Positions 1 through 38,300 of a DNA stretch of 60,467 nucleotides are shown here, in pieces. The position numbers were made by a program, and so were the translations under genes. Numbering within the stretch: the stretch's first letter is position 1; each line of letters starts with the position of its first letter. Origin of the DNA: Patescibacteria group bacterium (GTDB taxonomy: Bacteria > Patescibacteriota > Minisyncoccia > 2-02-FULL-40-12 > IGHO2-01-FULL-4-A); the NCBI GenBank assembly GCA_038061865.1, contig JBBTYI010000009.1, positions 1-60,467 on the forward strand, in the 5' to 3' direction. The notes beneath the pieces were generated by a model, which was given only the letters and a program-made list of their open reading frames with translations, was not told the origin of the DNA and made no database searches.

Positions 1-106
1 TGCGGCTCCGCCGCCTTTCCGAATTTTCGCGGGGGGACTTCCTCGCCGCCGCAGACGGCGAAAGCGGTTCGGACTAATTCAAGTATTCTACGCAAGATTT
101 ACTAAT

Positions 107-141
107 TGAAAAGCCCCGCCGCGGCGGGGCTTTTCAATTAG
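107..141. terminator. GC-rich hairpin (gccccgcc-gc-ggcggggc) flanked by A-run and T-run; bidirectional intrinsic terminator upstream of recG
   Basis: Perfect 8-bp GC stem with aaaa on the 5' side and tttt on the 3' side, seen directly in the sequence. Confidence 0.55.
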
Positions 142-165
142 TCGGTCAAGTGTTATTAAAAGATT

Positions 166-18439: not shown

Positions 18440-18515
18440 TATTCGCATGCGCTATGAATTATTCGCGCACACTATTCGTCAAGTGTATGCAACTACTATT
18501 CGTAAGCGTAGTAAC
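18440..18515. repeat. Copy of the ATTCGCATGCGCTATTCGTAAGCGTATGTAAC-family repeat, downstream of the DksA-like gene
   Basis: Sequence identity with the elements at 18904-19060 and, in reverse orientation, at 56399-56550. Confidence 0.6.
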
Positions 18516-18522
18516 TATTATA

Positions 18523-18897
18523 TCAGAGTGGGCGGGCGGTTTTGGCGCAGTCAAAACATAAGCGGACCGCCGACATCGCCTGGAGCCGTTTTCCATCAAT
18601 GTTAGAACGGCATTTTTCACAAACGCCGTAACTGCCGCTCTCCAGTTTGGCTAAGGTATCTTTTATTTCTTTCAGGCGCATTTCCAGACTTTGTTCGACC
18701 GCCCGTTCATTTTCATAGTCGGTAACACTGCGGGCTTTTTCGTCCAGCGTATCGGAGTTTTCCGTTTTGGGGAAAACTGATTGATAATCATCCCTGACGA
18801 CCGGATTTTTCACGGCAAAACGGCCGAGTTCGGCTTCAATTATCTGTATCTCTTGGAGTAAATCTTCTCTTAATTTTTGCAACTCTTGGGGCGTCAT
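18523..18897 (-). CDS. DksA/TraR-family C4 zinc-finger protein
   Basis: 124 aa; coiled-coil N-terminus; C-terminal CEKC...CFDC (CxxC-17-CxxC). Confidence 0.7.
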   Translation of the reverse strand: MTPQELQKLREDLLQEIQIIEAELGRFAVKNPVVRDDYQSVFPKTENSDTLDEKARSVTDYENERAVEQSLEMRLKEIKDTLAKLESGSYGVCEKCRSNIDGKRLQAMSAVRLCFDCAKTARPL

Positions 18898-18903
18898 CAG
18901 TGG

Positions 18904-19060
18904 ATTCGCATGCGCTATTCGTAAACGTATGTAACCATTTTAGAAGTTAAGGCTAGCACGAATATTAAAAATAATCAATGAATAATTCGCGTGCGCTACA
19001 AACGATTCGCATGCGCTATTCGTAAGCGTATGTAACCACTATTTGTAAGCGTAGGTAACT
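18904..19060. repeat. Two near-identical 34-bp direct repeats (18904-18937 and 19005-19038) plus degenerate units, upstream of the DksA-like gene
   Basis: attcgcatgcgctattcgta[a/g][a/c]gtatgtaacca occurs twice about 67 bp apart; partial copies at 18985-19004 and 19040-19059. Confidence 0.65.
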
Positions 19061-19126
19061 ATTTCTGGGTAATAAAAAGGACATCAAACAAGTAACCCAC
19101 AAGAAGATGTGTGGACAATTAGCGGA

Positions 19127-22711: not shown

Positions 22712-22939
22712 TTAGAGCAATTCTAAGAATTCTTCTACGGTTAACTTTGCGTCGTTAATAATCGCCCGCACAAGAGATTTTTTGAGTGTTTTGCCAGCAT
22801 GAATTGGGATAACCGTTCTTGTGTTGGTCTTGGGATTTATCAGAATCAGATGACTGCCTTTTTGACGATCCTCTAAAAATCCTATTCTTTTGAGAATTTT
22901 GACAACTTTTTTGGCAACTAGAGCTGGAATCTTATCCAT
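22712..22939 (-). CDS. hicA: HicA-family toxin (YcfA-like mRNA interferase), copy 1
   Basis: 75 aa; KxVKILKRIGF...GSHLIL...IPIH motifs of HicA. Confidence 0.7.
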   Translation of the reverse strand: MDKIPALVAKKVVKILKRIGFLEDRQKGSHLILINPKTNTRTVIPIHAGKTLKKSLVRAIINDAKLTVEEFLELL

Positions 22940-22940
22940 A

Positions 22941-23198
22941 CTATCGGACGGGAAGTGAAACAGGAATCACTACAGTGCTTTGAAAAGATTTTGTTTCTTC
23001 CGGAATTGGCTCGTGGTGAGCAACCAAACTTTCTATGTAAAGCTCAATTGCTTCTTTAATATTTTTTTCAGCTTCTTCTAGAGTTTCGCCTTGGCTGTAG
23101 CAACCCGGAAGAGTTGGTGCAATCACGACAAAACCGCCATCCGGGTCTGACTCATAAAATACGGGGTAAGAATAGATTTTCTTGTTAATTTTTGACAT
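22941..23198 (-). CDS. hicB: HicB-family antitoxin (UPF0150 N-domain only), copy 1
   Basis: 85 aa; YPVFYESDPDGGFVVIAPTLPGCYSQGETLEEAEKNIKEAIELY matches the HicB N-domain; adjacent to hicA with a 1-nt gap. Confidence 0.65.
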   Translation of the reverse strand: MSKINKKIYSYPVFYESDPDGGFVVIAPTLPGCYSQGETLEEAEKNIKEAIELYIESLVAHHEPIPEETKSFQSTVVIPVSLPVR

Positions 23199-23250
23199 TT
23201 GTTCACTTTACCACATTACTTAACAAACTTAAAGGTGGAGAGGATTTGAT
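23199..23250 (-). promoter_or_regulatory. Conserved promoter/operator-like block upstream of hicB copy 1 (shared with the 24230-24290 block)
   Basis: About 40 nt are nearly identical to the sequence upstream of hicB copy 2 (aatcctctccacctttaagttt...taatgtgg). Putative -35 TTAAGT and -10 TAAAGT/TAGATT with a 16-nt spacer. Confidence 0.4.
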
Positions 23251-23761
23251 CTGCGGTTTTTTCGTAGTTGGACTGCACAAAAAACTCGAAAATGCTTTGA
23301 CTGCTTTCAATAAAGTAAAACATTTGAAATTGTGAGGGGTCTTGACGATAGAATCTCTTTACTACAATAAACTTATTACCCCCCAATATTCTCGATTTGC
23401 TTTCCGACAATAAAACTTCGGGGCTAAGGGGAATATCTCGTACCGCCGCTTCAATGTTGGAGGACTTGCTAAACAGTTCTAAGGTAATTCCACAGAATGG
23501 TGATCCGATTCCTTGATTACAACCACCATTTTCAAATATCTCTTTTTTATCAAAAGCAATTATCCCTCCAGCGGAATTGTCATAAGAAAAATTATTCGGA
23601 TACTTGACCTCAAACCCATACTCCTCATTCCGATAGGTTTGCCAGCCTGCCAGAGGGTTAGGAGTTGGACTACTTCCAGACAAATACCAGTACAACCCTA
23701 GACCGGCTAAGGTGAGAATAACGATGAGGGGGATGAGAGCAAAACCAGATTGAGTTTTCAT
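23216..23761 (-). CDS. Small secreted hypothetical protein
   Basis: 181 aa; signal/TM N-terminus (ALIPLIVILTLAGLGLYWYL); the start overlaps the hicA copy-2 stop (ATGA). Confidence 0.5.
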   Translation of the reverse strand: MKTQSGFALIPLIVILTLAGLGLYWYLSGSSPTPNPLAGWQTYRNEEYGFEVKYPNNFSYDNSAGGIIAFDKKEIFENGGCNQGIGSPFCGITLELFSKSSNIEAAVRDIPLSPEVLLSESKSRILGGNKFIVVKRFYRQDPSQFQMFYFIESSQSIFEFFVQSNYEKTADQILSTFKFVK

Positions 23762-23979
23762 TTTAGCAATTCTTCAAACTCTTGAGGAGTTATCTCGGCA
23801 TCTCTTAAAATCTTCCTCAACAAACCACGGCCTATGTCTTTATAGTCAGGAATGGTTATTGATTTTTTACTTGAGTGAGACAAACGTATATGGCTGCTTT
23901 GCCTACGAACTTCCTTATAACCAATCGTGGATAGAATTCTTACCATTTCTCTCCCTGAAAGTATTGGCAAACGAGGCAT
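23758..23979 (-). CDS. hicA: HicA-family toxin, copy 2 (divergent; GSH replaced by SSH)
   Basis: 73 aa; alignable to copy 1 (MPRLPILSGREMVRILSTIGY...SSH...IP). Confidence 0.6.
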   Translation of the reverse strand: MPRLPILSGREMVRILSTIGYKEVRRQSSHIRLSHSSKKSITIPDYKDIGRGLLRKILRDAEITPQEFEELLK

Positions 23980-23980
23980 T

Positions 23981-24229
23981 CTAGAGAATAATTGTTCTGA
24001 GGCTTAATTCTTTCGGGTGGTATGAGTTAAGAATATTGAGAGTTTTTTCTTCTTCAAGAATCATTTTTATAACTTCTCTGATATTGCCTAGTGCTTCTTT
24101 AAGAGTTTTTCCCTGCGTATAACAGCCTTCAAAAACAGGACATTCAACAACATAAAAGCCATCTTCGTCTTTCTCAATCAAAAGAGGAAGCTTTTTCCCG
24201 CGAAATTTTGATAAAGATTGAGATTTCAT
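23981..24229 (-). CDS. hicB: HicB-family antitoxin, copy 2
   Basis: 82 aa; DGFYVVECPVFEGCYTQGKTLKEALGNIREVIKM. Confidence 0.6.
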   Translation of the reverse strand: MKSQSLSKFRGKKLPLLIEKDEDGFYVVECPVFEGCYTQGKTLKEALGNIREVIKMILEEEKTLNILNSYHPKELSLRTIIL

Positions 24230-24290
24230 GTTGATAACAAATCTACCACATTATTCCAAAAACTTAAAGGTGGAGAGGATTTTAATAAAT
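24230..24290 (-). promoter_or_regulatory. Second copy of the conserved hicB upstream block; overlaps the NYN gene 3' end
   Basis: A 22-nt identical core, aaacttaaaggtggagaggatt, plus a flanking accacatta block. Confidence 0.4.
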
Positions 24291-25239: not shown

Positions 25240-26178
25240 ATGCCTGACCTCAAGCAACTCAAAACCCAATTTCTGGAATATCTGGAAATTGAGAAAAACC
25301 GCTCCGCCAAGACGGCGGGGAATTACGACCATTACTTGACTAGGTTCTTGGAGTTCGCCTCCGCCCACGGACGGATCAATCGAGCTGAAGATATCACCGA
25401 AGAATTAATCCGCAAGTTCCGGCTGCAGCTCAACCGCCGGCGTGACCAATTCGGTCGGCCGCTTAAACGCGTCACCCAGAATTATCACGTTATCGCTTTG
25501 CGTTCATTCCTGAAATATTTAGCCAAGCGCGATATCCAAACGGTCTCGGCGGAAAAACTGGAGTTGGGCAAGCAGGAGGAACGGGAAGTTACCTTTCTGG
25601 AACCGCATGAGCTTGAGAGATTTTTGAAGTCGCCGTCAGGCACTGACCTAGCCAGCCGGCGCGACCGGGCAATACTTGAGACACTTTTTTCCACCGGTTT
25701 GCGGGTATCGGAACTGTGCTCGCTCAACCGGGATGAGATAGACCTCAAGCGGGGAGAGTTTTCGGTCAGAGGCAAGGGCAGCAAAATCCGGGTGGTTTTT
25801 TTATCGGACACCGCCAGCGCCGCCTTGACCAATTACTTGGATAAGCGTACTGACGCCGACCCGGCGCTGTTTATCCGCGTGCCCAAAAACGAAAAGTTTG
25901 AAAAATTTGGAGAATTGCGGCTGACGCCGCGCAGTGTCCAGCGCATCATTAAAAAATACGCCGCCGTCGCCGGCATCATCGGAAAAAAAATATCACCTCA
26001 CAGTTTACGCCATAGTTTCGCCACTGACCTTTTACGCAACGGCGCCGATATTCGTTCGGTTCAAGCCCTGCTCGGCCACGCCTCTGTCACCACCACCCAG
26101 ATCTACACCCATGTCACCGACAAACAACTGCGTGAAACCCACCAAAAATACCACGGTAAACAAAAAGGGGTGTCTTAA
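25240..26178 (+). CDS. Tyrosine recombinase, XerC/XerD family
   Basis: The start was trimmed to MPDLKQLK. SAM-like N-domain; catalytic R...HxxR...Y (LRHSFATDLL...GHASVTTTQIYTHV). Confidence 0.8.
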   Translation: MPDLKQLKTQFLEYLEIEKNRSAKTAGNYDHYLTRFLEFASAHGRINRAEDITEELIRKFRLQLNRRRDQFGRPLKRVTQNYHVIALRSFLKYLAKRDIQTVSAEKLELGKQEEREVTFLEPHELERFLKSPSGTDLASRRDRAILETLFSTGLRVSELCSLNRDEIDLKRGEFSVRGKGSKIRVVFLSDTASAALTNYLDKRTDADPALFIRVPKNEKFEKFGELRLTPRSVQRIIKKYAAVAGIIGKKISPHSLRHSFATDLLRNGADIRSVQALLGHASVTTTQIYTHVTDKQLRETHQKYHGKQKGVS

Positions 26179-26186
26179 CACCCCCG

Positions 26187-27101
26187 CTATACTTGGCGCT
26201 CGGAATAAACTGCATCAAGCCAAGAGAAGTTGGAATCAAGCTGGGAAGTGATAAAATTTCTTTCCACTTCCGGCAAAACTAAGCCATTGAGTATATCACT
26301 GAATCCAGAGCGGATTTTACCTACATCCATCTCACAACTTTCGCTCCAGAGTTTCTCGGCTAGTCGGTAAAAGCGTAAGATCGCACCTTCGCGCGTAGCG
26401 GTTACAGCCAACAGATTTTTTTCCGGCAAAGAGTCCAATTTGGTCGTGTAGCTAAGCCAATGACCAGCGTTATCAATCTCCTTTGGCCCGAACAGATCCA
26501 CAAAATAGAGTTTACCCTGTTCATTAAGAACAACGTTGGCCAGTTTTAAATCTAAGCCGTGCGGCAGCAAACTTACTTCCTGGCCGGCAACAACTTTTCG
26601 ATGAACGGATGGCGGCGGATACTTTGCCAGCGTTTCCAAAACCGAGTGGAGGATAAACCATTTACGAAAGTTTGGTTCTTCGCGATTGGCTACCATGAAT
26701 TCGCCGTCACCACCAGTAATCAGTTCCTCATAGGAAAAGATTTGCGCTTCGGTACCCAGTTCCACCGGCTGGGTATAGAACAAAATTGGCAAGTTCCAGC
26801 CATAAGCTGCCAGCTCCTTTTTATAAGGCCCCAGCCGACTGTGTAAATTAGCCGCTAATTCCAGGGAAAGCCCTCTGCCCGCACCCATTCTTTTCCACAG
26901 CACTCGCCGGGATTGGTCTTCTACCTTGTATTCCAGCACGGAAACTTTCGATTGCCGGCCTTCGCTAATTCCGCGATAAGGCACTATCTTAAAATCCGCT
27001 AGATGCTCGTGCCGCTTCAAAATATCCATTTCTTTCTCCTTCGGTTGGAAAAGTTCAGCGTGCGATTTAAAAACGTCAGTTTCCACTAACTGATTTTTCA
27101 T
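26187..27101 (-). CDS. Protein-kinase-like fold phosphotransferase (APH/CHK-like), hypothetical
   Basis: 304 aa; catalytic-loop-like PHGLDLKLANVV and DFG-like VDLFG. Confidence 0.4.
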   Translation of the reverse strand: MKNQLVETDVFKSHAELFQPKEKEMDILKRHEHLADFKIVPYRGISEGRQSKVSVLEYKVEDQSRRVLWKRMGAGRGLSLELAANLHSRLGPYKKELAAYGWNLPILFYTQPVELGTEAQIFSYEELITGGDGEFMVANREEPNFRKWFILHSVLETLAKYPPPSVHRKVVAGQEVSLLPHGLDLKLANVVLNEQGKLYFVDLFGPKEIDNAGHWLSYTTKLDSLPEKNLLAVTATREGAILRFYRLAEKLWSESCEMDVGKIRSGFSDILNGLVLPEVERNFITSQLDSNFSWLDAVYSERQV

Positions 27102-27125
27102 ATGGTAATCCTAACGTAAACTTTT

Positions 27126-27665
27126 TCAGCTTACCAGCAGTTTCCGCAATACTTCCAAGTTCTTCTTCGCCCCGTTCATTGCCCGATGGGGTTTGGGTTC
27201 CGGTTCAATACCGAAGTATTTGCACATTGATGACAAACTAAACTTAGCCAGCCCGGGGAACCGGTCGCGACGCGACCAGCCGATGGAAAACAAATCCAAT
27301 CGGTGGTAGTCCAGCGGGTCCTCCACGGCAGATTTTTTAAATGCTTCGTTGATAAACGCCCAATCGGAGTAGGCGTTTTGGGCGAGAAATATCGCGTTTT
27401 TCGTTTTTTCGGCATAAATTTCCAGCGCGTCTTTCAGTGGCCAAGCTCGCTTCCAATCCCTTTCATTATAACCGTTGGCTTCCAGCGCTTTCCTGACCGC
27501 GGTTTTAATATGTTCCGGCTTGATTTTGACTTCAAATTTATCAATCACTTTCAGTGTTTTTTGGTCCATCACCAAAAGTCCCAATTCAATAATTTCGTGG
27601 ATTTGGGCGTCCAGACCGGTTAATTCAAGGTCGGTTATGGCCAGTGGTCTTTTGAAAAATTCCAT
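27126..27665 (-). CDS. DEDD-family 3'-5' exonuclease (DnaQ/oligoribonuclease-like)
   Basis: The start was trimmed to MEFFKRP; the listed ORF starts at an upstream TTG. Exo I ITDLELTGLD, Exo II-like NAYSDWAF, Exo III-like HRAMNGA. A TATAAT -10 box lies 7 nt upstream. Confidence 0.55.
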   Translation of the reverse strand: MEFFKRPLAITDLELTGLDAQIHEIIELGLLVMDQKTLKVIDKFEVKIKPEHIKTAVRKALEANGYNERDWKRAWPLKDALEIYAEKTKNAIFLAQNAYSDWAFINEAFKKSAVEDPLDYHRLDLFSIGWSRRDRFPGLAKFSLSSMCKYFGIEPEPKPHRAMNGAKKNLEVLRKLLVS

Positions 27666-27688
27666 CCTGATAATTATACCCCAGCTGA

Positions 27689-27732
27689 CCCCTATCAAAA
27701 ACCCCCGCCTAGGCGGGGGTTTTTGATAGGGG
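27689..27732. terminator. 21-bp perfect hairpin (cccctatcaaaaacccccgcc-ta-ggcgggggtttttgatagggg) at the tmRNA 3' end
   Basis: Perfect reverse complement over 21 bp with a 2-nt loop; abuts the tmRNA acceptor end. Confidence 0.6.
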
Positions 27733-28080
27733 TGGACTTGGGGGAAATCGAATCCCCGTCTGGAGGTTCATTTACACAAGCGCTACAAGTTTAGCCCGTC
27801 TTGTTTTAAGTAACCGCGTAAAAGACGGGCGAAATAGCGATTACTTGCTTTGAGGGTTGCGACCGGCGATCGGCAAAGCAACCAGATGCCGGAAGTTCCC
27901 GCTGATGACGTTGGTGACTGACTAGCGGGGTCGTCAGGCCAACGGCTACCTAAATGATGTTAGGCGGCAAACGCGAAATTTTGGTTTGCGTTTAGATTTT
28001 TGATTGTTGATTAAAGCGGTGACAATCATCCGCTACTTGCGCTGGTTATAAACGTACCGCCATCAAAGCCGGTCAAGCCC
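27731..28080 (-). ncRNA. ssrA: tmRNA (SsrA), about 350 nt, tag peptide (A)ANQNFAFAA
   Basis: Minus-strand read: 5' GGGCUUGACCGGCUUUGAUGGCGG resembles the consensus 5' GGGGCUGAUUCUGGAUUCGACGGG. The 3' end has a T-arm GGGGA-UUCGAUU-UCCCC and an acceptor strand CAAGUCC pairing with the 5' GGGCUUG. In frame is GCA AAC CAA AAU UUC GCG UUU GCC GCC UAA. An upstream TTGGAC-17-CATAGT promoter is present, and smpB is 1.8 kb away. Confidence 0.85.
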
Positions 28081-28225
28081 GTCTAAGTTTTTGGACTATG
28101 ACTGCTGGCTGCCCGCTGTCCAAAAATTTTGGCGGGCAAGCCCGTTATTTGACTAGCATACTACTAAATGTTAGCGTAGTCAAACTAGTTTCCTTTAACA
28201 ATTTTACTCAAAACGGAGGTGTGTT

Positions 28226-28783
28226 TTGGACAAAAAGCAAATCGTGATTGTTTGCGGCTATGGCTGTCACCTGACCCCCGGCTACCAGGAATACTTACGC
28301 CGGGTAGTCAGATATATCGGCGAGAATTTTGTTGAGCTGATTATTGTCTGCGGCGGAAAGAGTCAACAAAAAACCGCGCCGGACAAAAGCGAGGCAGAGG
28401 TTATAAGTTCTTTTCTGCAGAACGAACCGGATTGGGAAGAGCTCTATGCCGGCCGTTGTGGACTGCCAAAAATTATTTGCGAAACTTGCTCGTTGACGAC
28501 CCTGAAAAATCTTGGGAACGCCAAGGATTTCATCGGCGAATTTAGCCCGAAGGAGTACCGGTTAATAATTTTCTGCGATGCCAGCCAGGCGTTGAAGGTA
28601 AAATTGCTGGCAATGTCCATCTTTCCCGAGTATGACATCCAAATAGAAACCTACGACCTCTCCAGCCGAGGCGAGGTCAAGAAACAGCTAATGGCCACCA
28701 ATTTCGAAGTATTAGCCCTGAAATTTCCGTTCTTGTCCCGCTGGCATCACCAGCAGCGGGTGAAGCGGGCGGGGCGGATTTAA
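28226..28783 (+). CDS. DUF218 (YdcF/ElyC-like) domain protein
   Basis: 185 aa; TTG start with a GGAGG Shine-Dalgarno; IVIVCGYG...ELIIVCGG pattern. Confidence 0.4.
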   Translation: MDKKQIVIVCGYGCHLTPGYQEYLRRVVRYIGENFVELIIVCGGKSQQKTAPDKSEAEVISSFLQNEPDWEELYAGRCGLPKIICETCSLTTLKNLGNAKDFIGEFSPKEYRLIIFCDASQALKVKLLAMSIFPEYDIQIETYDLSSRGEVKKQLMATNFEVLALKFPFLSRWHHQQRVKRAGRI

Positions 28784-28813
28784 CAATCGTCACAAAAAAG
28801 GGATAATGAGATC

Positions 28814-29854
28814 ATGAAAGAAACGGAATTGCTAGCAGAATATACTGCCCACGCGCGGGAGTTGGATTTTATCGCCGATCCAGCCGAACCGGCTTGGCAG
28901 GTGTCGGTATATCCCGGCGAGTTCCGGGAAATCAAGCAGCATGGCACACGGTTTGGTCAGCCGGTAACATTCAATGCGATTGACCGGCAGTATTTGCCGG
29001 AGAACCATAACCAACAACTGGAAATTTTACTGGCTTATAACCAGTTGGTGGAGAAGCGGTCCGTTAGCGACGCGCCAGTGATCCGCTTGCCGGCAGTGCA
29101 ATGTATGCACGATTACCAGGCAACATTGGCCATTGTCTGGGAAAAACCGGAGGGCCAACGGATAATCAGCGACGAGGAATATGGAAAGTATTTTTCCCGC
29201 GGCGACGCTATCTGGCGAAAAATTGAAGAAACCGCCACTCTGATTCGATTAACTGTAGAGCAACTCGAAGACCTTCGCTTCCATAACAGCGACGCGGTGG
29301 GAGAATTACTACACGGAAAATCCTACGCCGATTACTTTTTAGAAAGATTCAGCAGGTGGAACGCCGAACGTCAAAAGGCCGGGAAAATATCCGACTATGA
29401 TCAACTGGAACAGCAGAAGTTTGCCGTTTTGCGGACGATTTTCAGTCGCGGTTCAACTGCTGGTACTGGCCTGCAACTCGCTTGGAATGTCTGCGGCAAC
29501 ACTGACATCATCAAGACAGCCGATGGACAATATTACCTGGTTAACGGCCGCTTTGAGGCCAAGCCGCCCAGCTTCCTACCGGCGGCTTGGATTTGGAACC
29601 TGACGCTACATGGCGCTTGGCTAAAAAGTTCAGAACAGCTTGTGGAAAATATTTTGGATTGCTGCCAAATCTTCAGTGTCCAGCGGTTTTTTAGCCCTTT
29701 TCTGAATGACAACCTGCTGGAGCGGCTGTTTGCCGCTCGTTGGGTGGACGCCGATCTGCGGCGCAGTCCATTTAACCGGGTTAGTGACTTGGAATGGCAA
29801 CGAGCGATTGATAATCTGGACTATGTATTACGCCAGCTATTGCGTTCCCTTTAG
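28814..29854 (+). CDS. Hypothetical protein
   Basis: 346 aa; no recognisable motif. Confidence 0.45.
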   Translation: MKETELLAEYTAHARELDFIADPAEPAWQVSVYPGEFREIKQHGTRFGQPVTFNAIDRQYLPENHNQQLEILLAYNQLVEKRSVSDAPVIRLPAVQCMHDYQATLAIVWEKPEGQRIISDEEYGKYFSRGDAIWRKIEETATLIRLTVEQLEDLRFHNSDAVGELLHGKSYADYFLERFSRWNAERQKAGKISDYDQLEQQKFAVLRTIFSRGSTAGTGLQLAWNVCGNTDIIKTADGQYYLVNGRFEAKPPSFLPAAWIWNLTLHGAWLKSSEQLVENILDCCQIFSVQRFFSPFLNDNLLERLFAARWVDADLRRSPFNRVSDLEWQRAIDNLDYVLRQLLRSL

Positions 29855-29880
29855 CCCCGAAGTAAGGGGGCTTTTTATTT
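29851..29880 (+). terminator. Intrinsic terminator (gcccc-gaagtaa-ggggc followed by tttttattt)
   Basis: Stem with a T-run after the 28814 gene. Confidence 0.5.
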
Positions 29881-29887
29881 CTGCCGA

Positions 29888-30331
29888 TTACTTTATTCTT
29901 CGCAACGCCCGTTCTGTCTCCCGCCGTTTGACCACTTCCCGTTTGTCGTATTTTTTCTTGCCGCGGGCGACGGCAATTTCTAACTTAATCAGCCCCCTTT
30001 TGTCGTAAAGTTTGAGCGGCGCAAGAGTGAGACCTTGCTCTTGGGATTTGCCAATCAGATATTTAAGCTCGGATTTTTTGAGCAGAAGCTTGCGGGAGCG
30101 CTGGGGGTCATAGGGAGGTCCGCCAGCTGGCGGATTGCCCGGCTGGTAAGGGGAGACAGTTGCACCGACCAACCACGCTTCGCCACCCAGTATTTTCACA
30201 TACGCTCCTTTGATAGACACTTTACCGGTTTTGACTGACCTTACTTCCTGTCCGGTCAAAACTAAACCAGCTCGGAATGTTTCCAATACTTCATAATCAA
30301 ACCGGACTTTGGGATTGTCGGCGTAGGTCAT
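29888..30331 (-). CDS. smpB: SsrA-binding protein SmpB
   Basis: The start was trimmed to MTYADNP (147 aa). VLETFRAGLVLTGQEV...GKVSIKGAYV; C-terminal basic tail. Confidence 0.9.
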   Translation of the reverse strand: MTYADNPKVRFDYEVLETFRAGLVLTGQEVRSVKTGKVSIKGAYVKILGGEAWLVGATVSPYQPGNPPAGGPPYDPQRSRKLLLKKSELKYLIGKSQEQGLTLAPLKLYDKRGLIKLEIAVARGKKKYDKREVVKRRETERALRRIK

Positions 30332-30468
30332 AGCGGTGCTGGAGGTTATCCACACTTGTTATCTCGCCTCTTTAACTTATCATTTATCGTATAAGAAATT
30401 AATTGTCGGCACTGTGACGCACCGCGCGTTAGAGCGAGTGATAAGGTTTGCCGGCTTGAGCAGAAAAA

Positions 30469-30876
30469 TTGAAAAAAGATTCCGAGGCGCCTCCCTCTAT
30501 TAGCCTCGCCGGAAAATACCGCCGACTTAAATGTTGGGGGATGTTGGCGTCGCTGGATATTTACGGCTGTGCGCCCAGCCGCATCCGCGATCCCAAAAAA
30601 ATCCGCGAGTTTATCGTCGGGCTTTGCGCCCATATTGATATGAAACGCTACGGCGAACCGATGATCAAACGCTTCGGCGAAGGCGAGTTGGAGGGCTACT
30701 CCGCCCTGCAGTTCATCCACACTTCCTCTATCACTGTCCATTTTGACGAGACCCGAAACCGTGCCTTTATTGAAATCTTCTCCTGTAAATTCTTTGACCC
30801 CAAAAAAGCCGAACAGTTTTGTAAGTCCTTCCTTAAGGCCAAAAAGTCAAAACTCAAACACTTTTTTAGGTATTAA
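30469..30876 (+). CDS. S-adenosylmethionine decarboxylase-like (SpeH-family pyruvoyl-enzyme fold) protein; start uncertain
   Basis: LASLDIYGC aligns to the SpeH N-terminus HLxxDLYGC; FIHTSSITVHFDE...FIEIFSC aligns to the SpeH ESHxxIHTWPE...DxFTCG region, but the E-S self-cleavage dipeptide is not conserved. Confidence 0.45.
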   Translation: MKKDSEAPPSISLAGKYRRLKCWGMLASLDIYGCAPSRIRDPKKIREFIVGLCAHIDMKRYGEPMIKRFGEGELEGYSALQFIHTSSITVHFDETRNRAFIEIFSCKFFDPKKAEQFCKSFLKAKKSKLKHFFRY

Positions 30877-31157
30877 TCAAAAAGACGCTTTAATCTTTTA
30901 TAAAACTCGCCGCGCGGTCCAATGTATTGGATTATAATTTTCCTTTCGCCGGTATTAATTGTGTAGGCGGCCCGAAAGTTCTGACCAAAAACGCTAAAAT
31001 GATAGGAATAAAGAAAAGCCAGCGGCCCAGAGAGGCGTTCGCCCAAGTGTGGTTCTAGAGATAACTTTGCTAATCGAGCAACAACTTCTTCGCGCATACG
31101 CCGCGGAAATTTTTTGAATACCCTATCGGCCGCGGTAGCGATAAACAACTGATACAT
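30873..31157 (-). CDS. RelE/ParE-family toxin
   Basis: 94 aa; RelE/ParE-like layout (...KKFPRRMREEVVARLAKL...). Confidence 0.6.
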   Translation of the reverse strand: MYQLFIATAADRVFKKFPRRMREEVVARLAKLSLEPHLGERLSGPLAFLYSYHFSVFGQNFRAAYTINTGERKIIIQYIGPRGEFYKRLKRLFD

Positions 31158-31163
31158 ATTTGG

Positions 31164-31370
31164 CTAAGCGCGGAGTTTTTTGATTTTGCCCCGGTTTGTA
31201 TCCCGTAAACCCTTTTGGATTGTTCTCATGGCCGGCCGGTCCAGCATCAACTCCAAAGTGGTTAGGTCGGAACGCGAAAGTTTGCGCAATCCAGTGGCCA
31301 GTTGTTCGAGAGAAATAGGCAAGTGTATGACATTTGTTTTTGAATTCATCTCGGTTTCCATAATCGCCAT
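31164..31370 (-). CDS. Putative cognate antitoxin (small DNA-binding protein)
   Basis: 68 aa; lies immediately upstream of and on the same strand as the RelE/ParE gene; family not recognised. Confidence 0.4.
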   Translation of the reverse strand: MAIMETEMNSKTNVIHLPISLEQLATGLRKLSRSDLTTLELMLDRPAMRTIQKGLRDTNRGKIKKLRA

Positions 31371-31605
31371 TTTAGCAGTTGCCCCTTGGTCAAGTCAATG
31401 TCTTTAAGAGCTAGACTAGCTAGTGGGGTGATTGCTTTTCAAGAATACCGTCGCAGCCACAGTATTTAGTAGGAACGAATAAGCGGAACTGAATAGCCCG
31501 CGCAGCGGAGAGTTACCTGTTATTTTCCTTACTTACTGGGCTAGGTTGAGTTAGATCCGGAACGAGGGAGGAACAAAGAGAAAAAAGGCAGGATGGGATT
31601 GGCGA

Positions 31606-32670
31606 CTACTTTCTTTCCTCCAGCACCGTCTTTACCTGTATCGTCTCCTTGCCTCGCATCACCATCATTTCGCAGGGATCGCCGACTTTGAGGGTCTGGA
31701 CAACGTCGGCCAGTTCGTGTTTATCGGTCAGTTTGTGGCCGTTCATTTCTAAAACAATGTCATTTTCCTTGATGCCGGCTTTATGAGCGGGGGAGCCGGC
31801 TACTACCGCTTCGGTGCCCGGCACGTGATCTTTGATCACCAGCGCGCCGTAATCCACCGGCAGGGTGTATTTTTTTTGGAGCTCCGCGTTGAGCATAATG
31901 TAGCGCAGGCCGATGTAGGGCCGGATGATGCGACCGTGTTTGATAATGTCTTCCAAATCGGCCTTGGCCCAATTGACCGGCAAAGCAAAACCAATATTCT
32001 GCGCGCCGTAGATGATGGCCGTGTTGATGCCGATTACTTCCCCCTCCAGATTGACCAGCGGACCGCCGGAATTGCCTTGGTTGATGGCCACGTCGGTTTG
32101 GATAACGTTGCGCAGGTTCTCGATCTCCCCGCCCTGCCCGAGCGAAGCAGAAATCTTCCGGCCCAACCCGGAGATGATGCCTTTAGAAACAGTGTTGGTA
32201 AACATTCCCAAAGCGTTGCCAATGGCCACTACCGTTTGGCCCAGTTCAATGCGGTTGGAATTGCCCAAGCGCGCCGTGGGCAGGCCCTTGGCTTGAATTT
32301 TCAGCACCGCCACGTCGTTGATCGGGTCGCGGGAGATCACTCGACCGCTATGCTCTTTTTCGTCGGCGGTAATGATGGTGTATTCGGCATCCGGGTCAAA
32401 AACCACGTGCTTGTTGGTTAAAACCAAACCATCGGGATGGACGATAAACCCCGAGCCGCCGCCGACTTTGATTTTTTCTTTGGGGCCGTTTTCAATTCCG
32501 TCCATTGGCTGATTGGGTAAGCTCTGGTCGGGCAAACCAAAGCCAAACGGCCCGAAAAATGGGTTGAAAGGCAGCTGCTTGACCGTCGGCATCATTTTGG
32601 AAATGACGATGCTGACCACAGCCGGTGAGACCTTTTTGACCGTCTCAATTGTTTGACGTTCCATGTCCAT
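31606..32670 (-). CDS. htrA: HtrA/DegP-family serine protease with a PDZ domain
   Basis: 354 aa; trypsin-like motif GNSGGPLVNLEGEVIGINTAI; C-terminal PDZ. Confidence 0.9.
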   Translation of the reverse strand: MDMERQTIETVKKVSPAVVSIVISKMMPTVKQLPFNPFFGPFGFGLPDQSLPNQPMDGIENGPKEKIKVGGGSGFIVHPDGLVLTNKHVVFDPDAEYTIITADEKEHSGRVISRDPINDVAVLKIQAKGLPTARLGNSNRIELGQTVVAIGNALGMFTNTVSKGIISGLGRKISASLGQGGEIENLRNVIQTDVAINQGNSGGPLVNLEGEVIGINTAIIYGAQNIGFALPVNWAKADLEDIIKHGRIIRPYIGLRYIMLNAELQKKYTLPVDYGALVIKDHVPGTEAVVAGSPAHKAGIKENDIVLEMNGHKLTDKHELADVVQTLKVGDPCEMMVMRGKETIQVKTVLEERK

Positions 32671-32687
32671 GATTTACTATTCTACCA

Positions 32688-33257
32688 ATGAAGCACAAAA
32701 AACTCAACCAGAATTTTTTCGCCCGCCCAACGCTTCAAGTGGCCAGAGAGCTTTTGGGCAAGTTTTTAGTTCGTAAAATCGGCCAGCGCCAGATTGCCGC
32801 AATGATTACCGAAACCGAGGCCTATCGCGGGCCAAACGATCTGGCTTCGCACGCTTCGCACGGACCTGCCTGGCCGGCAGGCAGACGGACGCCGCGGACC
32901 GAAGTAATGTTCGGCCCGCCCGGCCACGCTTATATTTATCTGATTTACGGGATGTATCATTGCCTGAATATCGCCACGGAAAAGGAGGGCTACCCCGCCG
33001 CTGTCTTGATTCGTGGTGCTTCATTATTCCCTAAAACCTATAACCTAACACCTACCCTGAACGGGCCGGGGAAATTATGCCGTTTTTTAAAAATAGATAA
33101 AATGCTAAATGGGGATAATCTGACTATCAGTCCGCGGCTGTGGTTGGAGGATCGGGGCAACAAAATCAGACCCAATCAGATTAAAAGGACCAAAAGAATC
33201 GGGGTGGATTATGCCGGGCCATACAAAGACAAATTGTGGCGGTTTATGATAAAGTGA
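32688..33257 (+). CDS. DNA-3-methyladenine glycosylase (Mpg/AAG family)
   Basis: 189 aa; ARELLGKFLVRK...ITETEAYRG...GHAYIYLIYGMYHCLNIAT. Confidence 0.85.
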   Translation: MKHKKLNQNFFARPTLQVARELLGKFLVRKIGQRQIAAMITETEAYRGPNDLASHASHGPAWPAGRRTPRTEVMFGPPGHAYIYLIYGMYHCLNIATEKEGYPAAVLIRGASLFPKTYNLTPTLNGPGKLCRFLKIDKMLNGDNLTISPRLWLEDRGNKIRPNQIKRTKRIGVDYAGPYKDKLWRFMIK

Positions 33258-35375: not shown

Positions 35376-38300
35376 ATGACATTGGATGATTTCAAAAAGA
35401 ACGAAGAGAAAATACTGAAATTTTGGGGGGACAGCAAAATTTTTGAAAAAAGTTTGGCGCAAAGAAAAGGCGCCAAGCCGTTTGTTTTTTATGAAGGTCC
35501 GCCCACCGCCAACGGCCTGCCCCATATCGGCCATCTCCTCACTCGCATCTTCAAGGACCTCTACGGCCGGTATAAAACTATGCGCGGCTATTACGTCCTG
35601 CGCCGGGCCGGCTGGGACACCCACGGCTTGCCGGTGGAGATTGAAGTGGAAAAGCAGCTGGGACTGAAAACTAAAAAAGACATAGAAGAATTCGGCATCG
35701 CCCGCTTCAACAAAAAGGCGAGAGAAAGCGCGCAAAAGTACAAGGCCGAATGGGAAAGAATGACCGAAAGGATGGGTTTTTGGCTGGACTTGGACAACCC
35801 CTATATCACTTACCGGCCCGATTATATTGAATCAGTTTGGGCGATAATCAAAAAAATTTGGGACAAGAAATTGCTTTACCAAGGCCACAAGGTGATACCT
35901 TTCTGCACCCGTTGCGGCACGCCGCTTTCCAGCCATGAAGTGGCCCAGGGATATGAGGACATTACCGAAACAGCGGTGATAGTAAAGTTAAAAATCAAAG
36001 AACCTTTAGAAGCTATAAGCCATAACCTAACACCTAACACCTATTTTCTGGCTTGGACAACGACCCCGTGGACTTTGCCGGGCAATGTCGCTTTGGCGGT
36101 AGGGGAAAGTATTAAGTATCTAATAGTAAGTATTAAGGGAGGAAATGAGAAATACGTTTTGGCGGAAGATCGGGCAGAAAAGGTGCTTAATGCCGAATAT
36201 GAGATACTTGATACCGTCTCTGGAAAAGACTTGGTCGGTTTGGAATACGAACCGCTGTTTGACGTTGCCGCGCTAAAATCAAAAAATTCTTACAAAGTTT
36301 ACCCGGCTGATTTTGTCACTACCGAGGAGGGCACTGGCATTGTCCATACGGCGGTGATGTACGGTGAGGAGGATTATGAACTAGGCAAAAAAGTCGGTTT
36401 GCCGACTCGCCATACCGTGGACGAGCAAGGGCGGTTCACTGCCGATGTCGCCGCTTTTTCCGGCCAATATGTCAAAGACGCCGAGCCAGGCATCGTGAAA
36501 TATCTGCGCGATAAAAACCGGCTGTTCAAAGAAGAACTCCACCTCCACACTTATCCTTTTTGCTGGCGCTGCCACACGCCATTGCTTTACTACGCCACCG
36601 ATTCGTGGTTCATCAAAATGTCCGCCCGGCGCCAGCAGCTATTGAAAAACAACCGCCAGATAAACTGGAAACCGAAGCACATGAAGGAAGGGCGGTTTGG
36701 CGAATTCATCAAAGAAACCAAGGATTGGGCCTTGAGCCGTAAGCGTTACTGGGGAACGCCGCTGCCGATTTGGCAATGCGCTAATAAACATCATCTGGTG
36801 GTCAGCGCGCTGGCCGATTTGGAAAGACATCGTTTTCGTCCAGCCAATACTTATTATCTGATCCGCCACGGCACCAGCACTAAAAATGTCGTGCCCGGCA
36901 AGGATATCATCTCTTCCAAACTGGAAAAGGATGCTTACGAACTGACTAGTCAAGGCCGCGCCGAGGTAAAAGAAACGGCCCGCCAGCTCAAACGGGCCAA
37001 CGGGGCGGACTTGATTATCAGCTCGCCGTTTTTGCGCACCAAACAAACCGCGCAGATTATTGCCGACTACTTGAACCAGCCGGTAAAAATTGACAAACGG
37101 CTGAAAGAAATAGATCTGGGGTCCGCTAACGAAGGCCGACTGTACGACGAAGCTATTCCGCCGGTGCCGGATTTTGAGACCAAACTTGACGACGGCGAGA
37201 GCCGGCACGATGTCAGAAGGCGGGTCTGGTCATTGATACGTGAGCTGGAAGAAAAATATTCCGGCAAAAAGATCATTTTGGTCAGCCACGGAGATCCCAT
37301 CTGGTTATTGGACGGGCTGTCACGCAATCTGGATGAGCCGGCCATGTTGTTGCATCGGGCACAGGATTATCTTAAAAAAGGCGGGGTCAGGAAAGTTACT
37401 TTTGCCAACTATCCGCGCAATGAAGATGGTGAAGTGGATCTGCACCGGCCGTATGTGGATGAGATAGCGCTGAAATGTCCCGAATGCAATGAAGCAATGC
37501 GCCGTGTACCCGACTTGATAGACGTTTGGTTTGATTCGGGCGCTATGCCGCTGGCCCAGTGGCATTACCCGTTTGAGAATAAAAAGTTAGTTGACAGCGG
37601 ACAACAGTATCCGGCCGATTTCATTGTTGAAGCCATTGACCAGACCCGGGGCTGGTTTTATACAATGCTGGCTATTGCCACCGCTTCGGGTCGCAAACCG
37701 CCTTATAAAAATGTGATGGTGCTCGGCCACACGCTGGATGAAAAGGGCCGCAAAATGTCCAAGTCCAAAGGCAATGTCATCATGGCGCACGACATTTTGG
37801 AACAGTTTGGCGCCGATGTTGTCCGTTGGTATCTGTTCACGCTGTCCGACCCGGCCGATGGCAAGCCGATCAGCCCTAAAGACATAGCACAAAAGTACCG
37901 GGGATTTTTCGGCACCTTGCAAAATACTTTACGCTTTTTTGAATTGTACGCCTCCTCGGCCAAACCCAGCGGCTCGCCTGAACCGCAGAGCGAATTAGAC
38001 CAGTGGCTCTTCGCCCGTTTGGCCCAACTGACTGCCACCGTCACAGAAAATCTGGACGCCTATGCACCCACTATCGCCGCCCGGGCGATTGAGGAGTTCG
38101 TGGTGGATGATTTGTCTAACTGGTGGGTCAGGCGGTCAAGAAAAAGATTCCAGCACCCGGTTAGTAATGAGGAACTGGTCTATGTCGCTTCAATTTTACG
38201 ATATGCGCTTTTGGAATTGGCAAAAATTATAGCTCTGTTTATACCCTTCACTGCCGAATGGCTGCATTCCGAACTGCACCGCGGCCAGACGGCCGGGACG

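What the first reader, a model, noticed from the sequence alone, without database searches (positions are those of the whole stretch)
27731..28080. Unannotated tmRNA (ssrA) with tag ANQNFAFAA, terminated by a 21-bp perfect hairpin and close to smpB
A 520-bp ORF-free region contains, on the minus strand, a tRNA-like 3' end and a matching 5' end with a consensus-like GGCUUUGAUGGCGG box. The T-arm is GGGGA-UUCGAUU-UCCCC and the acceptor strand CAAGUCC pairs with the 5' GGGCUUG. An in-frame tag ORF ends ...GCG UUU GCC GCC UAA. The RNA ends inside a 21-bp perfect palindrome (27689-27732). That palindrome also carries the -10 region of the downstream exonuclease gene. A DEDD exonuclease, a kinase-like protein and a Xer recombinase lie just 3' of ssrA, a classic island-integration hotspot. 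I could not find an att-like duplicate of the tmRNA 3' end.
Basis: partly seen in the sequence, partly recalled or inferred. Interest (0 to 1): 0.55.

Follow-up and report, generated by a model that had tools for sequence, protein, structure and literature searches.

The report
Ordinary tmRNA gene in a Patescibacterium
This is a normal, intact copy of the ribosome-rescue RNA (tmRNA, gene ssrA) of an uncultured groundwater Patescibacterium; standard tools find it, it is probably already annotated, and nothing shows a mobile island inserted next to it.

Summary
ARAGORN calls a tmRNA at 27731-28080 (-) with tag ANQNFAFAA*. Rfam RF00023 matches end to end (116.6 bits against a gathering score of 47, E 6.5e-45). 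The acceptor stem with G3:U70, the T-arm, pseudoknot PK1, the GCA resume codon, the UAA stop and the perfect palindrome are all present. The palindrome is 46 nt (27688-27733), giving a 21-bp stem. smpB lies 1.8 kb upstream on the same strand. The closest relative found, a Minisyncoccia MAG, has an orthologous tmRNA with compensatory stem changes and a tag that differs by one in-frame codon (ANQNFAFATA).

The window is a Patescibacteria MAG contig in NCBI. Locus-tag and protein-accession numbering imply a non-protein gene between the exonuclease and the DUF218 gene, so ssrA is very probably already annotated.

The island idea is not supported:
- There is no att-like repeat and no composition shift.
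- The exonuclease also sits downstream of ssrA in the relative.
- The recombinase is Xer-type and lies beside rpsO.
- The kinase-fold family sits in varied housekeeping contexts.

The TATAAT of the exonuclease gene lies outside the palindrome; only a -35-like TTGATA is inside it. Verdict: real, ordinary and already known. The only mild oddities are the short 9-codon tag and a 3' ACC end sequestered in the terminator stem.

The parts
27731..28080 (-). ssrA, a one-piece tmRNA gene. The mature 3' end is the encoded ...A-C-C (27733-27731). The next base is C, so the terminal A of CCA is not encoded.
   Evidence: ARAGORN; Rfam RF00023 at 116.6 bits, full length; sequence
28074..28080 (-). Acceptor stem 5' strand, GGGCUUG. 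It pairs with 27734-27740 and includes the G3:U70 alanine identity pair.
   Evidence: Sequence. In 12 related tmRNAs all 7 pairs are 100% paired, G:U is invariant and 3 pairs change on both sides.
28057..28070 (-). D-loop-analogue box GGCUUUGAUGGCGG of the tRNA-like domain
   Evidence: Sequence; aligned to the Rfam consensus GGaUUCGACggg; largely conserved in alignment A1
28001..28034 (-). Pseudoknot PK1. Stem 1 is AGCGG/CCGCU and stem 2 is UGAUUGU/ACAAUCA. It ends 11 nt before the resume codon.
   Evidence: Rfam alignment; pairing read from the sequence; L014 keeps stem 1 through changes on both sides, AGUGG/CCACU
27960..27989 (-). Tag reading frame: GCA resume codon (27989-27987), 9 codons ANQNFAFAA, UAA stop (27962-27960)
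   Evidence: ARAGORN; script; L014 has ANQNFAFATA, differing by one in-frame codon
27741..27757 (-). T-arm GGGGA-UUCGAUU-UCCCC
   Evidence: Sequence; all 5 pairs change on both sides across relatives and are 100% paired
27734..27740 (-). Acceptor stem 3' strand CAAGUCC; the discriminator A follows at 27733
27688..27733 (.). Perfect 46-nt palindrome (21-bp stem, 4-nt loop). It has a GC-rich core flanked by A5 and T5 tracts, the shape of a bidirectional intrinsic terminator. Its first three bases are the tmRNA's 3' A-C-C.
   Evidence: Script; fold -49.2 kcal/mol, z -9.0; a second palindrome of the same build at 101-142
28095..28122 (-). Candidate ssrA promoter: TGGACA, 16 nt, CATAGT. It predicts a 5' leader of about 8 nt to be removed by RNase P. 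This is a consensus match only.
   Evidence: Promoter scan. An alternative is TTGACT-17-TATGCT at 28183-28155.
29888..30355 (-). smpB, the protein partner of tmRNA. The NCBI start at 30331 gives 147 aa.
   Evidence: Pfam SmpB E 3.5e-47; NCBIfam equivalog 167 bits against a cutoff of 130; NCBI name
27126..27665 (-). DEDD (RNase_T/DnaQ-like) 3'-5' exonuclease gene directly downstream of ssrA. TATAAT (27678-27673) lies only 7 nt before its ATG.
   Evidence: Pfam RNase_T E 1.4e-16; NCBIfam best hits are PolC/DnaQ exonuclease domains; a 73%-identical homologue lies downstream of ssrA in L014

Best explanation
This is the resident, functional ssrA gene of a Patescibacterium (Parcubacteria/Minisyncoccia-like, from groundwater). 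It encodes a standard one-piece tmRNA.

Inferred from established tmRNA biology (not tested here): the RNA is transcribed from its own promoter and ends at a strong intrinsic terminator. RNase P trims the 5' end. The 3' end is trimmed back to the discriminator or ACC, and the CCA-adding enzyme completes it, because CCA is not fully encoded. AlaRS charges the RNA with alanine through the G3:U70 pair. Together with SmpB, encoded 1.8 kb upstream, it enters stalled ribosomes. Translation resumes at GCA and adds ANQNFAFAA after the tmRNA-borne Ala. The UAA stop releases the ribosome, and the hydrophobic ...AFAA end marks the product for proteolysis.

Shown here: the gene, its structural elements, their covariation, the conserved reading frame, the terminator hairpin and the smpB partner.

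The neighbouring exonuclease, kinase-fold and Xer genes are ordinary chromosomal genes, not cargo of an island inserted in ssrA.
For: - Detection: ARAGORN call at the exact coordinates. Full-length RF00023 match, 116.6 bits against a gathering score of 47, E 6.5e-45, and the sole Rfam hit in the window.
- Structure: acceptor and T-arm pairs are 100% paired across 12 related tmRNAs. 8 of 12 pairs change on both sides, 0 of 500 shuffles reach the observed score, and shifted registers drop to 51-64% paired. G3:U70 is invariant.
- Reading frame: the L014 orthologue (RF00023, 105.9 bits) has an identical tag-coding stretch apart from a 3-nt in-frame insertion, giving ANQNFAFATA.
- Partner: smpB is intact. 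66 of 80 related Patescibacteria loci carry ssrA within the fetched flank of smpB, 51 of them within 600 nt on the same strand. Gaps of 1-1.6 kb on the same strand, close to the 1.8 kb here, occur in L010, L014, L020 and L031.
- Terminator: 21-bp hairpin followed by a U-tract, z -9.
- Sequence quality: two further assemblies are identical across ssrA.
- Setting: the surrounding genes are core housekeeping genes, including recG, polA, holA, pnp, rpsO, argS and ileS.
Against: Nothing in the sequence argues against it. No expression, processing or charging data are available. The promoter is only a 9-of-12 consensus match. The tag has 9 codons, shorter than all 54 ARAGORN-called tags from the related loci, which have 10-27. 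The 3' A-C-C is base-paired in the terminator stem, so maturation must open or cleave a very stable helix.
Confidence: 0.96

Rival explanations
1. ssrA here is the attachment site of an integrated, possibly decayed, genomic island. The exonuclease, the kinase-fold protein and the tyrosine recombinase (25240-27665) would be its cargo and integrase.
For: A tyrosine recombinase gene lies 1.55 kb from the ssrA 3' end. ssrA is a known island target (PMC4131195 and PMC3146451). Gene content downstream of ssrA varies among relatives. In L050, rpsO and the NYN gene follow smpB within 0.6 kb.
Against: No repeat of the tmRNA 3' end occurs anywhere in the 60 kb. GC is 0.47-0.49, like the rest of the window. 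The exonuclease has a 73%-identical homologue downstream of ssrA in L014, and a 51%-identical one about 5 kb downstream of ssrA in L020. The recombinase aligns full length to the XerC/XerD/XerA models, and NCBI names it from the XerA model; I saw no Arm-type N-terminal domain. The kinase-fold family has more than 130 members in varied core contexts. PHROGs gives no hit for the 304-aa protein.
Confidence: 0.04
2. The downstream DEDD exonuclease is functionally coupled to ssrA. It would act as an RNase T-like 3' trimming enzyme that matures a tmRNA precursor whose ACC end is locked in the 21-bp terminator stem.
For: The exonuclease gene directly abuts ssrA. The -35-like hexamer of its promoter lies inside the ssrA terminator. 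It keeps its position downstream of ssrA in L014 (73% identity) and, more loosely, in L020. From my own knowledge, not checked in the literature here: RNase T and RNase PH trim tmRNA 3' ends in E. coli.
Against: The best family matches are the DNA-polymerase proofreading domains of PolC and DnaQ (61 bits). RNase T scores only 17.5 bits, E 0.0026. PHROGs places it with 'DNA polymerase exonuclease subunit'. Only 2 of 80 related smpB loci have a homologue within the fetched flank. A single-strand-specific DEDD exonuclease could not enter a 21-bp helix unaided.
Confidence: 0.05
3. The 46-nt perfect palindrome is not a terminator. It would instead be an assembly fold-back artefact, or a protein or recombinase binding site.
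For: The Logan contig stops exactly at the outer edge of the palindrome, 27733. A Xer recombinase gene is nearby.
Against: An independent ENA contig reads straight through it, with identical sequence on both sides. The flanks are not inverted copies beyond 23 nt. The build is textbook for an intrinsic terminator: GC-rich core, then U5, with a matching A5 upstream. A second palindrome of the same build lies at 101-142, just upstream of recG. L014 has its own A/T-tract palindrome a few bases after its tmRNA. The palindrome does not resemble a 28-nt dif site (11-6-11); that comparison is by eye, from memory.
Confidence: 0.03

Closest known systems
One-piece bacterial tmRNA (Rfam RF00023; E. coli SsrA is the type example)
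   Same: The match to the model is full length. It has a tRNA-Ala-like domain with G3:U70, a 7-nt T-loop, PK1 upstream of a GCA resume codon, a short tag ending in hydrophobic-Ala-Ala, a stop codon at the base of the next helix and further downstream helices. An SmpB partner is encoded nearby.
   Different: The tag has 9 encoded residues (ANQNFAFAA) against 10 in E. coli (ANDENYALAA, from memory). The terminal A of CCA is not encoded. The terminator stem starts at the discriminator base. None of these differences falls outside known tmRNA variation.
tmRNAs of Parcubacteria/Patescibacteria MAGs (Yanofskybacteria, Paceibacterota, Minisyncoccia)
   Same: They share smpB-ssrA linkage, the AN/AK...A(F/L)A tag style, and a CCA that is mostly not encoded. 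The nearest, L014, has the tag ANQNFAFATA and the same order: smpB, 346-aa homologue, ssrA, exonuclease.
   Different: In 51 of 80 relatives ssrA follows smpB within 600 nt on the same strand. Here two opposite-strand genes (DUF218 and a 346-aa APH-fold protein) separate them by 1.8 kb. The tag is one codon shorter than any of the 54 ARAGORN-called tags from the related loci.
ssrA-integrated genomic islands and prophages (for example the Dehalococcoides vcr islands, PMC3146451; Mantri and Williams 2004 as cited in PMC4131195)
   Same: A tyrosine recombinase family gene lies within 2 kb of the ssrA 3' end.
   Different: There is no duplicated ssrA 3' fragment, no compositional shift and no mobile-element cargo. 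The recombinase is Xer-type. The intervening exonuclease also lies downstream of ssrA in a relative.
Bidirectional intrinsic (Rho-independent) terminators
   Same: A GC-rich hairpin flanked by an A-tract upstream and a T-tract downstream, symmetric on both strands.
   Different: The perfect symmetry extends 9 nt beyond the A/T tracts and overlaps the mature 3' end of the RNA. No convergent gene uses the other face. The nearest + strand gene upstream of it is the recombinase gene, 1.5 kb away.

Membership tests
tmRNA (RF00023, ssrA) | Covariance-model match above the curated gathering score, over the full model | tested here: met
   116.6 bits against 47, model positions 1-374/374, E 6.5e-45; independent ARAGORN call
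tmRNA (RF00023, ssrA) | tRNA-like domain: a 7-bp acceptor stem joining the 5' and 3' ends, with the G3:U70 alanine identity pair and discriminator A | tested here: met
   GGGCUUG/CAAGUCC followed by A; G:U invariant in 12 of 12 relatives; 3 acceptor pairs change on both sides
tmRNA (RF00023, ssrA) | T-arm with a 5-bp stem and a 7-nt T-loop (UUCGAnU) | tested here: met
   GGGGA-UUCGAUU-UCCCC; all 5 pairs change on both sides and are 100% paired
tmRNA (RF00023, ssrA) | Internal tag reading frame that starts at an Ala (or Gly) resume codon, ends at a stop codon and has a hydrophobic C-terminus | tested here: met
   GCA...UAA, ANQNFAFAA*; the frame is preserved through a 3-nt indel in L014
tmRNA (RF00023, ssrA) | Pseudoknot PK1 immediately upstream of the resume codon | tested here: met
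   Stems AGCGG/CCGCU and UGAUUGU/ACAAUCA (28034-28001), from the Rfam alignment and the sequence; stem 1 changes on both sides in L014
tmRNA (RF00023, ssrA) | SmpB partner encoded in the genome | tested here: met
   SmpB at 29888-30355 (-), NCBIfam equivalog 167 bits against a cutoff of 130
tmRNA (RF00023, ssrA) | The RNA is expressed, alanylated and tags stalled nascent chains | not testable with these tools
   Needs RNA-seq or Northern blots, charging assays and proteomics
Genomic island integrated at ssrA | Direct repeat of the ssrA 3' segment (attR) at the far end of the island | tested here: not met
   No second match of the 24-mer with up to 3 mismatches. No shared 13-mer, and the best blastn-short hit is 10 nt, across 27.7 kb downstream and 32 kb upstream.
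Genomic island integrated at ssrA | Island-type integrase adjacent to the att site | tested here: not met
   The recombinase is 1.55 kb away. It aligns full length to XerC/XerD (243 bits each) and passes the XerA cutoff, 230 against 220. It abuts rpsO.
Genomic island integrated at ssrA | The segment is foreign: atypical composition, mobile cargo, or absence from relatives | tested here: inconclusive
   GC is unremarkable. The exonuclease also lies downstream of ssrA in L014, and the kinase-fold family is chromosomal elsewhere. No genome close enough was available to show presence or absence of the whole block. L050 has rpsO and the NYN gene right after smpB.
Intrinsic (Rho-independent) terminator | Stable GC-rich hairpin immediately followed by a U-tract | tested here: met
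   Core CCCCCGCC-UAGG-GGCGGGGG followed by UUUUU; the whole hairpin folds at -49.2 kcal/mol, z -9. The simple scan did not list it, presumably because of how that scan defines stems (at most 20 pairs counted, T-run to start within 2 bases after the stem). Termination activity itself was not tested.

The most novel reading that the evidence does not exclude
In this lineage tmRNA 3' maturation would be unusual. The mature A-C-C end is buried as the first three pairs of a perfect 21-bp terminator helix, and the terminal A is not encoded. The DEDD exonuclease gene lies immediately downstream, its promoter overlaps that terminator, and it keeps its place after ssrA in the nearest relative. It would be a dedicated tmRNA 3'-processing factor rather than a DNA proofreading subunit.
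Probability: 0.05. Interest if true: 0.35.

Novelty: already known. Interest (0 to 1): 0.06.

Why it matters
It matters little beyond correct annotation. tmRNA and SmpB are near-universal in bacteria, and default pipelines find this copy. It confirms that this reduced-genome Patescibacterium keeps trans-translation. It also adds a data point at the short end of tag lengths: 9 encoded residues. Showing that there is no island here prevents a false mobile-element call.

Tried and rejected
- Island hypothesis. I searched for att repeats with a 24-mer at up to 3 mismatches, 13-mers and blastn-short; nothing was found. The GC profile is flat. PHROGs gives only generic integrase and exonuclease hits. 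Rejected.
- Phage origin. blastn 'distant' of 27600-28200 against 50,697 phage records gave no match.
- Paralogy of the two unknown proteins flanking ssrA. BLASTP gave E 2.6, so they are not detectably related. Both nevertheless have kinase-type folds. I treat that as coincidence.
- PDB sequence searches for the 304-aa and 346-aa proteins, including a profile search, found nothing. Only fold search was informative.
- 5' leader hairpin and the 15-nt near-duplicate of the tmRNA 5' end (28145-28131). The fold is not significant (z -1.7) and the duplicate is absent from L014. Dropped.
- A tmRNA between smpB and rpsO in L050. Neither ARAGORN nor Rfam at gathering threshold finds one. Left unexplained.
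- One search failed because too much sequence was submitted.

Full report
**Observation.** ARAGORN finds exactly one tRNA-like gene in the 60,467-bp window. It is a tmRNA at 27731-28080 on the minus strand with tag peptide ANQNFAFAA*. A scan of the whole window against Rfam 15 at gathering thresholds gives one hit, RF00023 (tmRNA), at 27730-28080 (-). It covers model positions 1-374 of 374 and scores 116.6 bits against a gathering score of 47, E 6.5e-45.

- The 5' strand GGGCUUG (28080-28074) pairs with CAAGUCC (27740-27734) and includes the G3:U70 wobble.
- The discriminator A is at 27733, followed by CC and then C, so the last A of CCA is not encoded.
- The T-arm is GGGGA-UUCGAUU-UCCCC (27757-27741).
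- The box GGCUUUGAUGGCGG is at 28070-28057.
- PK1 has stems AGCGG/CCGCU and UGAUUGU/ACAAUCA (28034-28001).
- The tag frame is GCA AAC CAA AAU UUC GCG UUU GCC GCC UAA (27989-27960).

**Hairpin.** The palindrome is perfect over 46 nt (27688-27733), one base longer on each side than reported. That makes a 21-bp stem with a 4-nt loop. As RNA it folds at -49.2 kcal/mol, z = -9.0, and none of 200 shuffles folds as well. Its build is A5, GC-rich core, T5, which is the shape of a bidirectional intrinsic terminator. A second perfect palindrome of the same build lies at 101-142, just upstream of recG, so this looks like the genome's ordinary terminator style. The nearest relative has a different A/T-tract palindrome a few bases after its tmRNA. 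What is specific to this genome is that the stem begins at the discriminator base, so the mature A-C-C end is paired in the primary transcript.

**Organism and annotation.** The SmpB protein's closest relatives are Patescibacteria MAGs (Yanofskybacteria, Paceibacterota, Minisyncoccia), at 67-69% identity at best. Exact-sequence look-ups show that the window is a 60,467-bp NCBI contig of a 'Patescibacteria group bacterium' MAG. An ENA contig named Hain_H43_01um, from groundwater, carries the same locus.

The 304-aa protein is AAB585_00810 and the 346-aa protein is AAB585_00830. The exonuclease (MEK7507071) and the DUF218 protein (MEK7507072) have consecutive protein accessions. Three locus tags therefore cover two proteins. 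I infer that the spare tag, 00820, is a non-protein gene between them, which would be ssrA. 'Unannotated' is thus very probably wrong.

Two other assemblies agree with the sequence. A Logan contig equals window 27733-32923 with no mismatch; it breaks exactly at the palindrome edge. The ENA contig equals 26048-30304 with one mismatch, at 26100, and reads through the palindrome.

**Comparative evidence that the gene is functional.** Of 80 related smpB loci, 66 carry a tmRNA in the fetched flank. In 51 of them it lies within 600 nt downstream on the same strand.

In an alignment of 12 related tmRNAs, the acceptor and T-arm pairs are 100% paired and 8 of 12 pairs change on both sides. No shuffle out of 500 reaches the observed covariation score, and shifting the register drops pairing to 51-64%. 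G3:U70 never varies.

The nearest relative is L014, a Minisyncoccia MAG. ARAGORN misses its tmRNA but Rfam finds it at 105.9 bits. Its acceptor (GGGGAUG/CAUCUCC), T stem (GCGGA/UCCGC) and PK1 stem 1 differ from the window by compensatory changes. Its tag-coding stretch is identical except for a 3-nt in-frame insertion, giving ANQNFAFATA. That is the pattern expected for a translated tag under selection.

**Neighbourhood.** On the minus strand the order is as follows:
- smpB (30331/30355-29888)
- two plus-strand genes: a 346-aa protein (28814-29854) and a DUF218/ElyC-SanA-YdcF gene (28226-28783)
- ssrA
- a DEDD exonuclease (27665-27126)
- a 304-aa protein (27101-26187)
- a plus-strand Xer-type recombinase (25240-26178)
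- rpsO (25102-24836)
- a NYN-domain gene
- two HicB/HicA pairs
- pnp

The AlphaFold2 model has pLDDT 91. The top Foldseek PDB hits are Rio1 and eukaryotic-type protein kinases, E about 2e-6. The family has an invariant D-L-K-x-x-N and D-L-F-G.

The 346-aa protein has only five relatives in 5.8 billion sequences, plus a 28%-identical homologue at the same position in L014. Its model (pLDDT 84) resembles aminoglycoside, fructosamine and amicoumacin kinases.

**Island hypothesis.** None of the defining signs is present.
- No second copy of the tmRNA 3' end exists in the window: 24-mer with up to 3 mismatches, no shared 13-mer, best short-BLAST match 10 nt.
- GC is 0.47-0.49, like the rest of the window.
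- The exonuclease has a 73%-identical homologue downstream of ssrA in L014 and a 51%-identical one in L020.
- The recombinase aligns full length to XerC and XerD (about 243 bits each) and passes the XerA cutoff, 230 against 220. It is divergent from rpsO.
- Homologues of the 304-aa protein sit next to infB/rbfA, ligA/gatCA and an aminoacyl-tRNA synthetase gene in other genomes.

The one point in favour is that gene content after ssrA varies among relatives. In L050, rpsO and the NYN gene follow smpB directly. I give the island reading about 4%.

**Promoter detail.** The TATAAT before the exonuclease gene is at 27678-27673, 10 nt outside the palindrome. What lies inside is a -35-like TTGATA (27698-27693), 14 nt from TATAAT or 17 nt from AATTAT. 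The ATG at 27665 is the start codon that aligns with the L014 homologue. It is only 7 nt after TATAAT. In L014 a TAATAT lies 6 nt before the ATG. Both suggest a leaderless mRNA.

**Mechanism.** The gene, its structure and its partner are shown here. From established tmRNA-SmpB biology I infer the rest: RNase P removes a short 5' leader; the 3' end is trimmed and completed by the CCA-adding enzyme; AlaRS charges the RNA through G3:U70; SmpB delivers it to stalled ribosomes; translation resumes at GCA; and the ...AFAA tag directs proteolysis.

**Comparison and novelty.** The gene meets every testable defining feature of RF00023 and is found by default tools, so it is already known in kind and very probably in fact. 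Two mild peculiarities remain. The tag has 9 codons, against 10-27 in the 54 ARAGORN-called tags from the related loci. The 3' end is embedded in the terminator. The most novel reading not excluded is that the adjacent DEDD exonuclease is a dedicated tmRNA 3'-processing enzyme. Its best family matches are DNA proofreading domains, and only 2 of 80 loci share the linkage, so I put this at about 5%.

Noticed in passing
window 35376-38864 (+): The isoleucyl-tRNA synthetase (TIGR00392, 878 bits) is 1162 aa. A histidine-phosphatase/phosphoglycerate-mutase-like domain (PF00300, E 5.6e-28) is inserted at residues 494-645, in the middle of the synthetase. A 261-aa query spanning both junctions matches many of the 150 listed 50%-identity cluster representatives end to end at about positions 440-710; a large share of these are 1100-1200 aa. 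So this is a recurrent architecture, not an assembly chimera. One literature search found no description.
   Followed up: partly
window 28814-29854 (+); L014 8560-9609 (-): A 346-aa protein sits between smpB and ssrA. It has only five relatives in 5.8 billion proteins, plus a 28%-identical homologue at the same position in the nearest relative. The AF2 model (pLDDT 84) has an aminoglycoside/fructosamine/amicoumacin-kinase fold. The usual H-x-D catalytic motif seems to be replaced by an invariant W-N-x-x-G-N, so it may be a pseudokinase.
   Followed up: partly
window 26187-27101 (-): The 304-aa 'hypothetical' protein belongs to a family of more than 130 members, mostly in Patescibacteria and Saccharibacteria with some in Actinobacteria. 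It has no Pfam, NCBIfam or PDB sequence match. The AF2 model is confident (pLDDT 91) and shows a Rio1/protein-kinase-like fold with invariant K69, D183-L-K-x-x-N188 and D201-L-F-G.
   Followed up: partly
window 22712-24282: The usual rpsO-pnp pair is split by a NYN-domain gene and two HicB/HicA toxin-antitoxin pairs (22712-23198 and 23758-24229). Each pair is preceded by a 39-nt repeat, 90% identical (23209-23247 and 24244-24282), which may be a shared operator or promoter.
   Followed up: no
window 18441-19061: A cluster of 15-35-nt direct repeats (ATTCGCATGCGCTATTCGTAAGCGTATGTAACCA and variants) flanks both sides of a DksA/TraR-type zinc-finger ORF at 18523-18897.
   Followed up: no
window 101-142: A second long perfect palindrome of 42 nt (ACTAATTGAAAAGCCCCGCCGCGGCGGGGCTTTTCAATTAGT). 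It has the same A-tract, GC-core, T-tract build as the ssrA terminator and lies just upstream of recG.
   Followed up: partly
window 27663-27680; L014 11475-11491: The exonuclease gene has a TATAAT only 7 nt before its ATG. In L014 a TAATAT lies 6 nt before the ATG. Neither has room for a Shine-Dalgarno sequence, which suggests a leaderless mRNA conserved between the two genomes.
   Followed up: no
window about 26000-32700: Cumulative GC skew reaches its minimum around 26-28 kb. Gene orientation switches from mostly minus to mostly plus between 28 and 32.7 kb, as at a replication origin. I did not see a dnaA gene among the ORFs I scanned.
   Followed up: no
window 28131-28145 compared with 28068-28082: A 15-nt near-duplicate (13 of 15 bases) of the tmRNA 5' end, ACGGGCTTGcCCGcC, lies 63 nt upstream of the gene and forms one arm of a weak hairpin (z -1.7). 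It is not conserved in L014.
   Followed up: partly
L002 9442-9958; L014 10044-10444: Several related tmRNAs are missed by ARAGORN but found by Rfam. The L002 match spans 517 nt, and L014 carries an extra segment of about 50 nt (alignment columns 191-238) relative to the window. These are expansions or insertions inside Patescibacteria tmRNAs.
   Followed up: no
L050 7098-7629: In this relative, smpB is followed after a 532-bp gap by rpsO and a NYN-domain gene, but neither ARAGORN nor Rfam at gathering threshold finds a tmRNA in the gap or anywhere else in the 13-kb locus.
   Followed up: no
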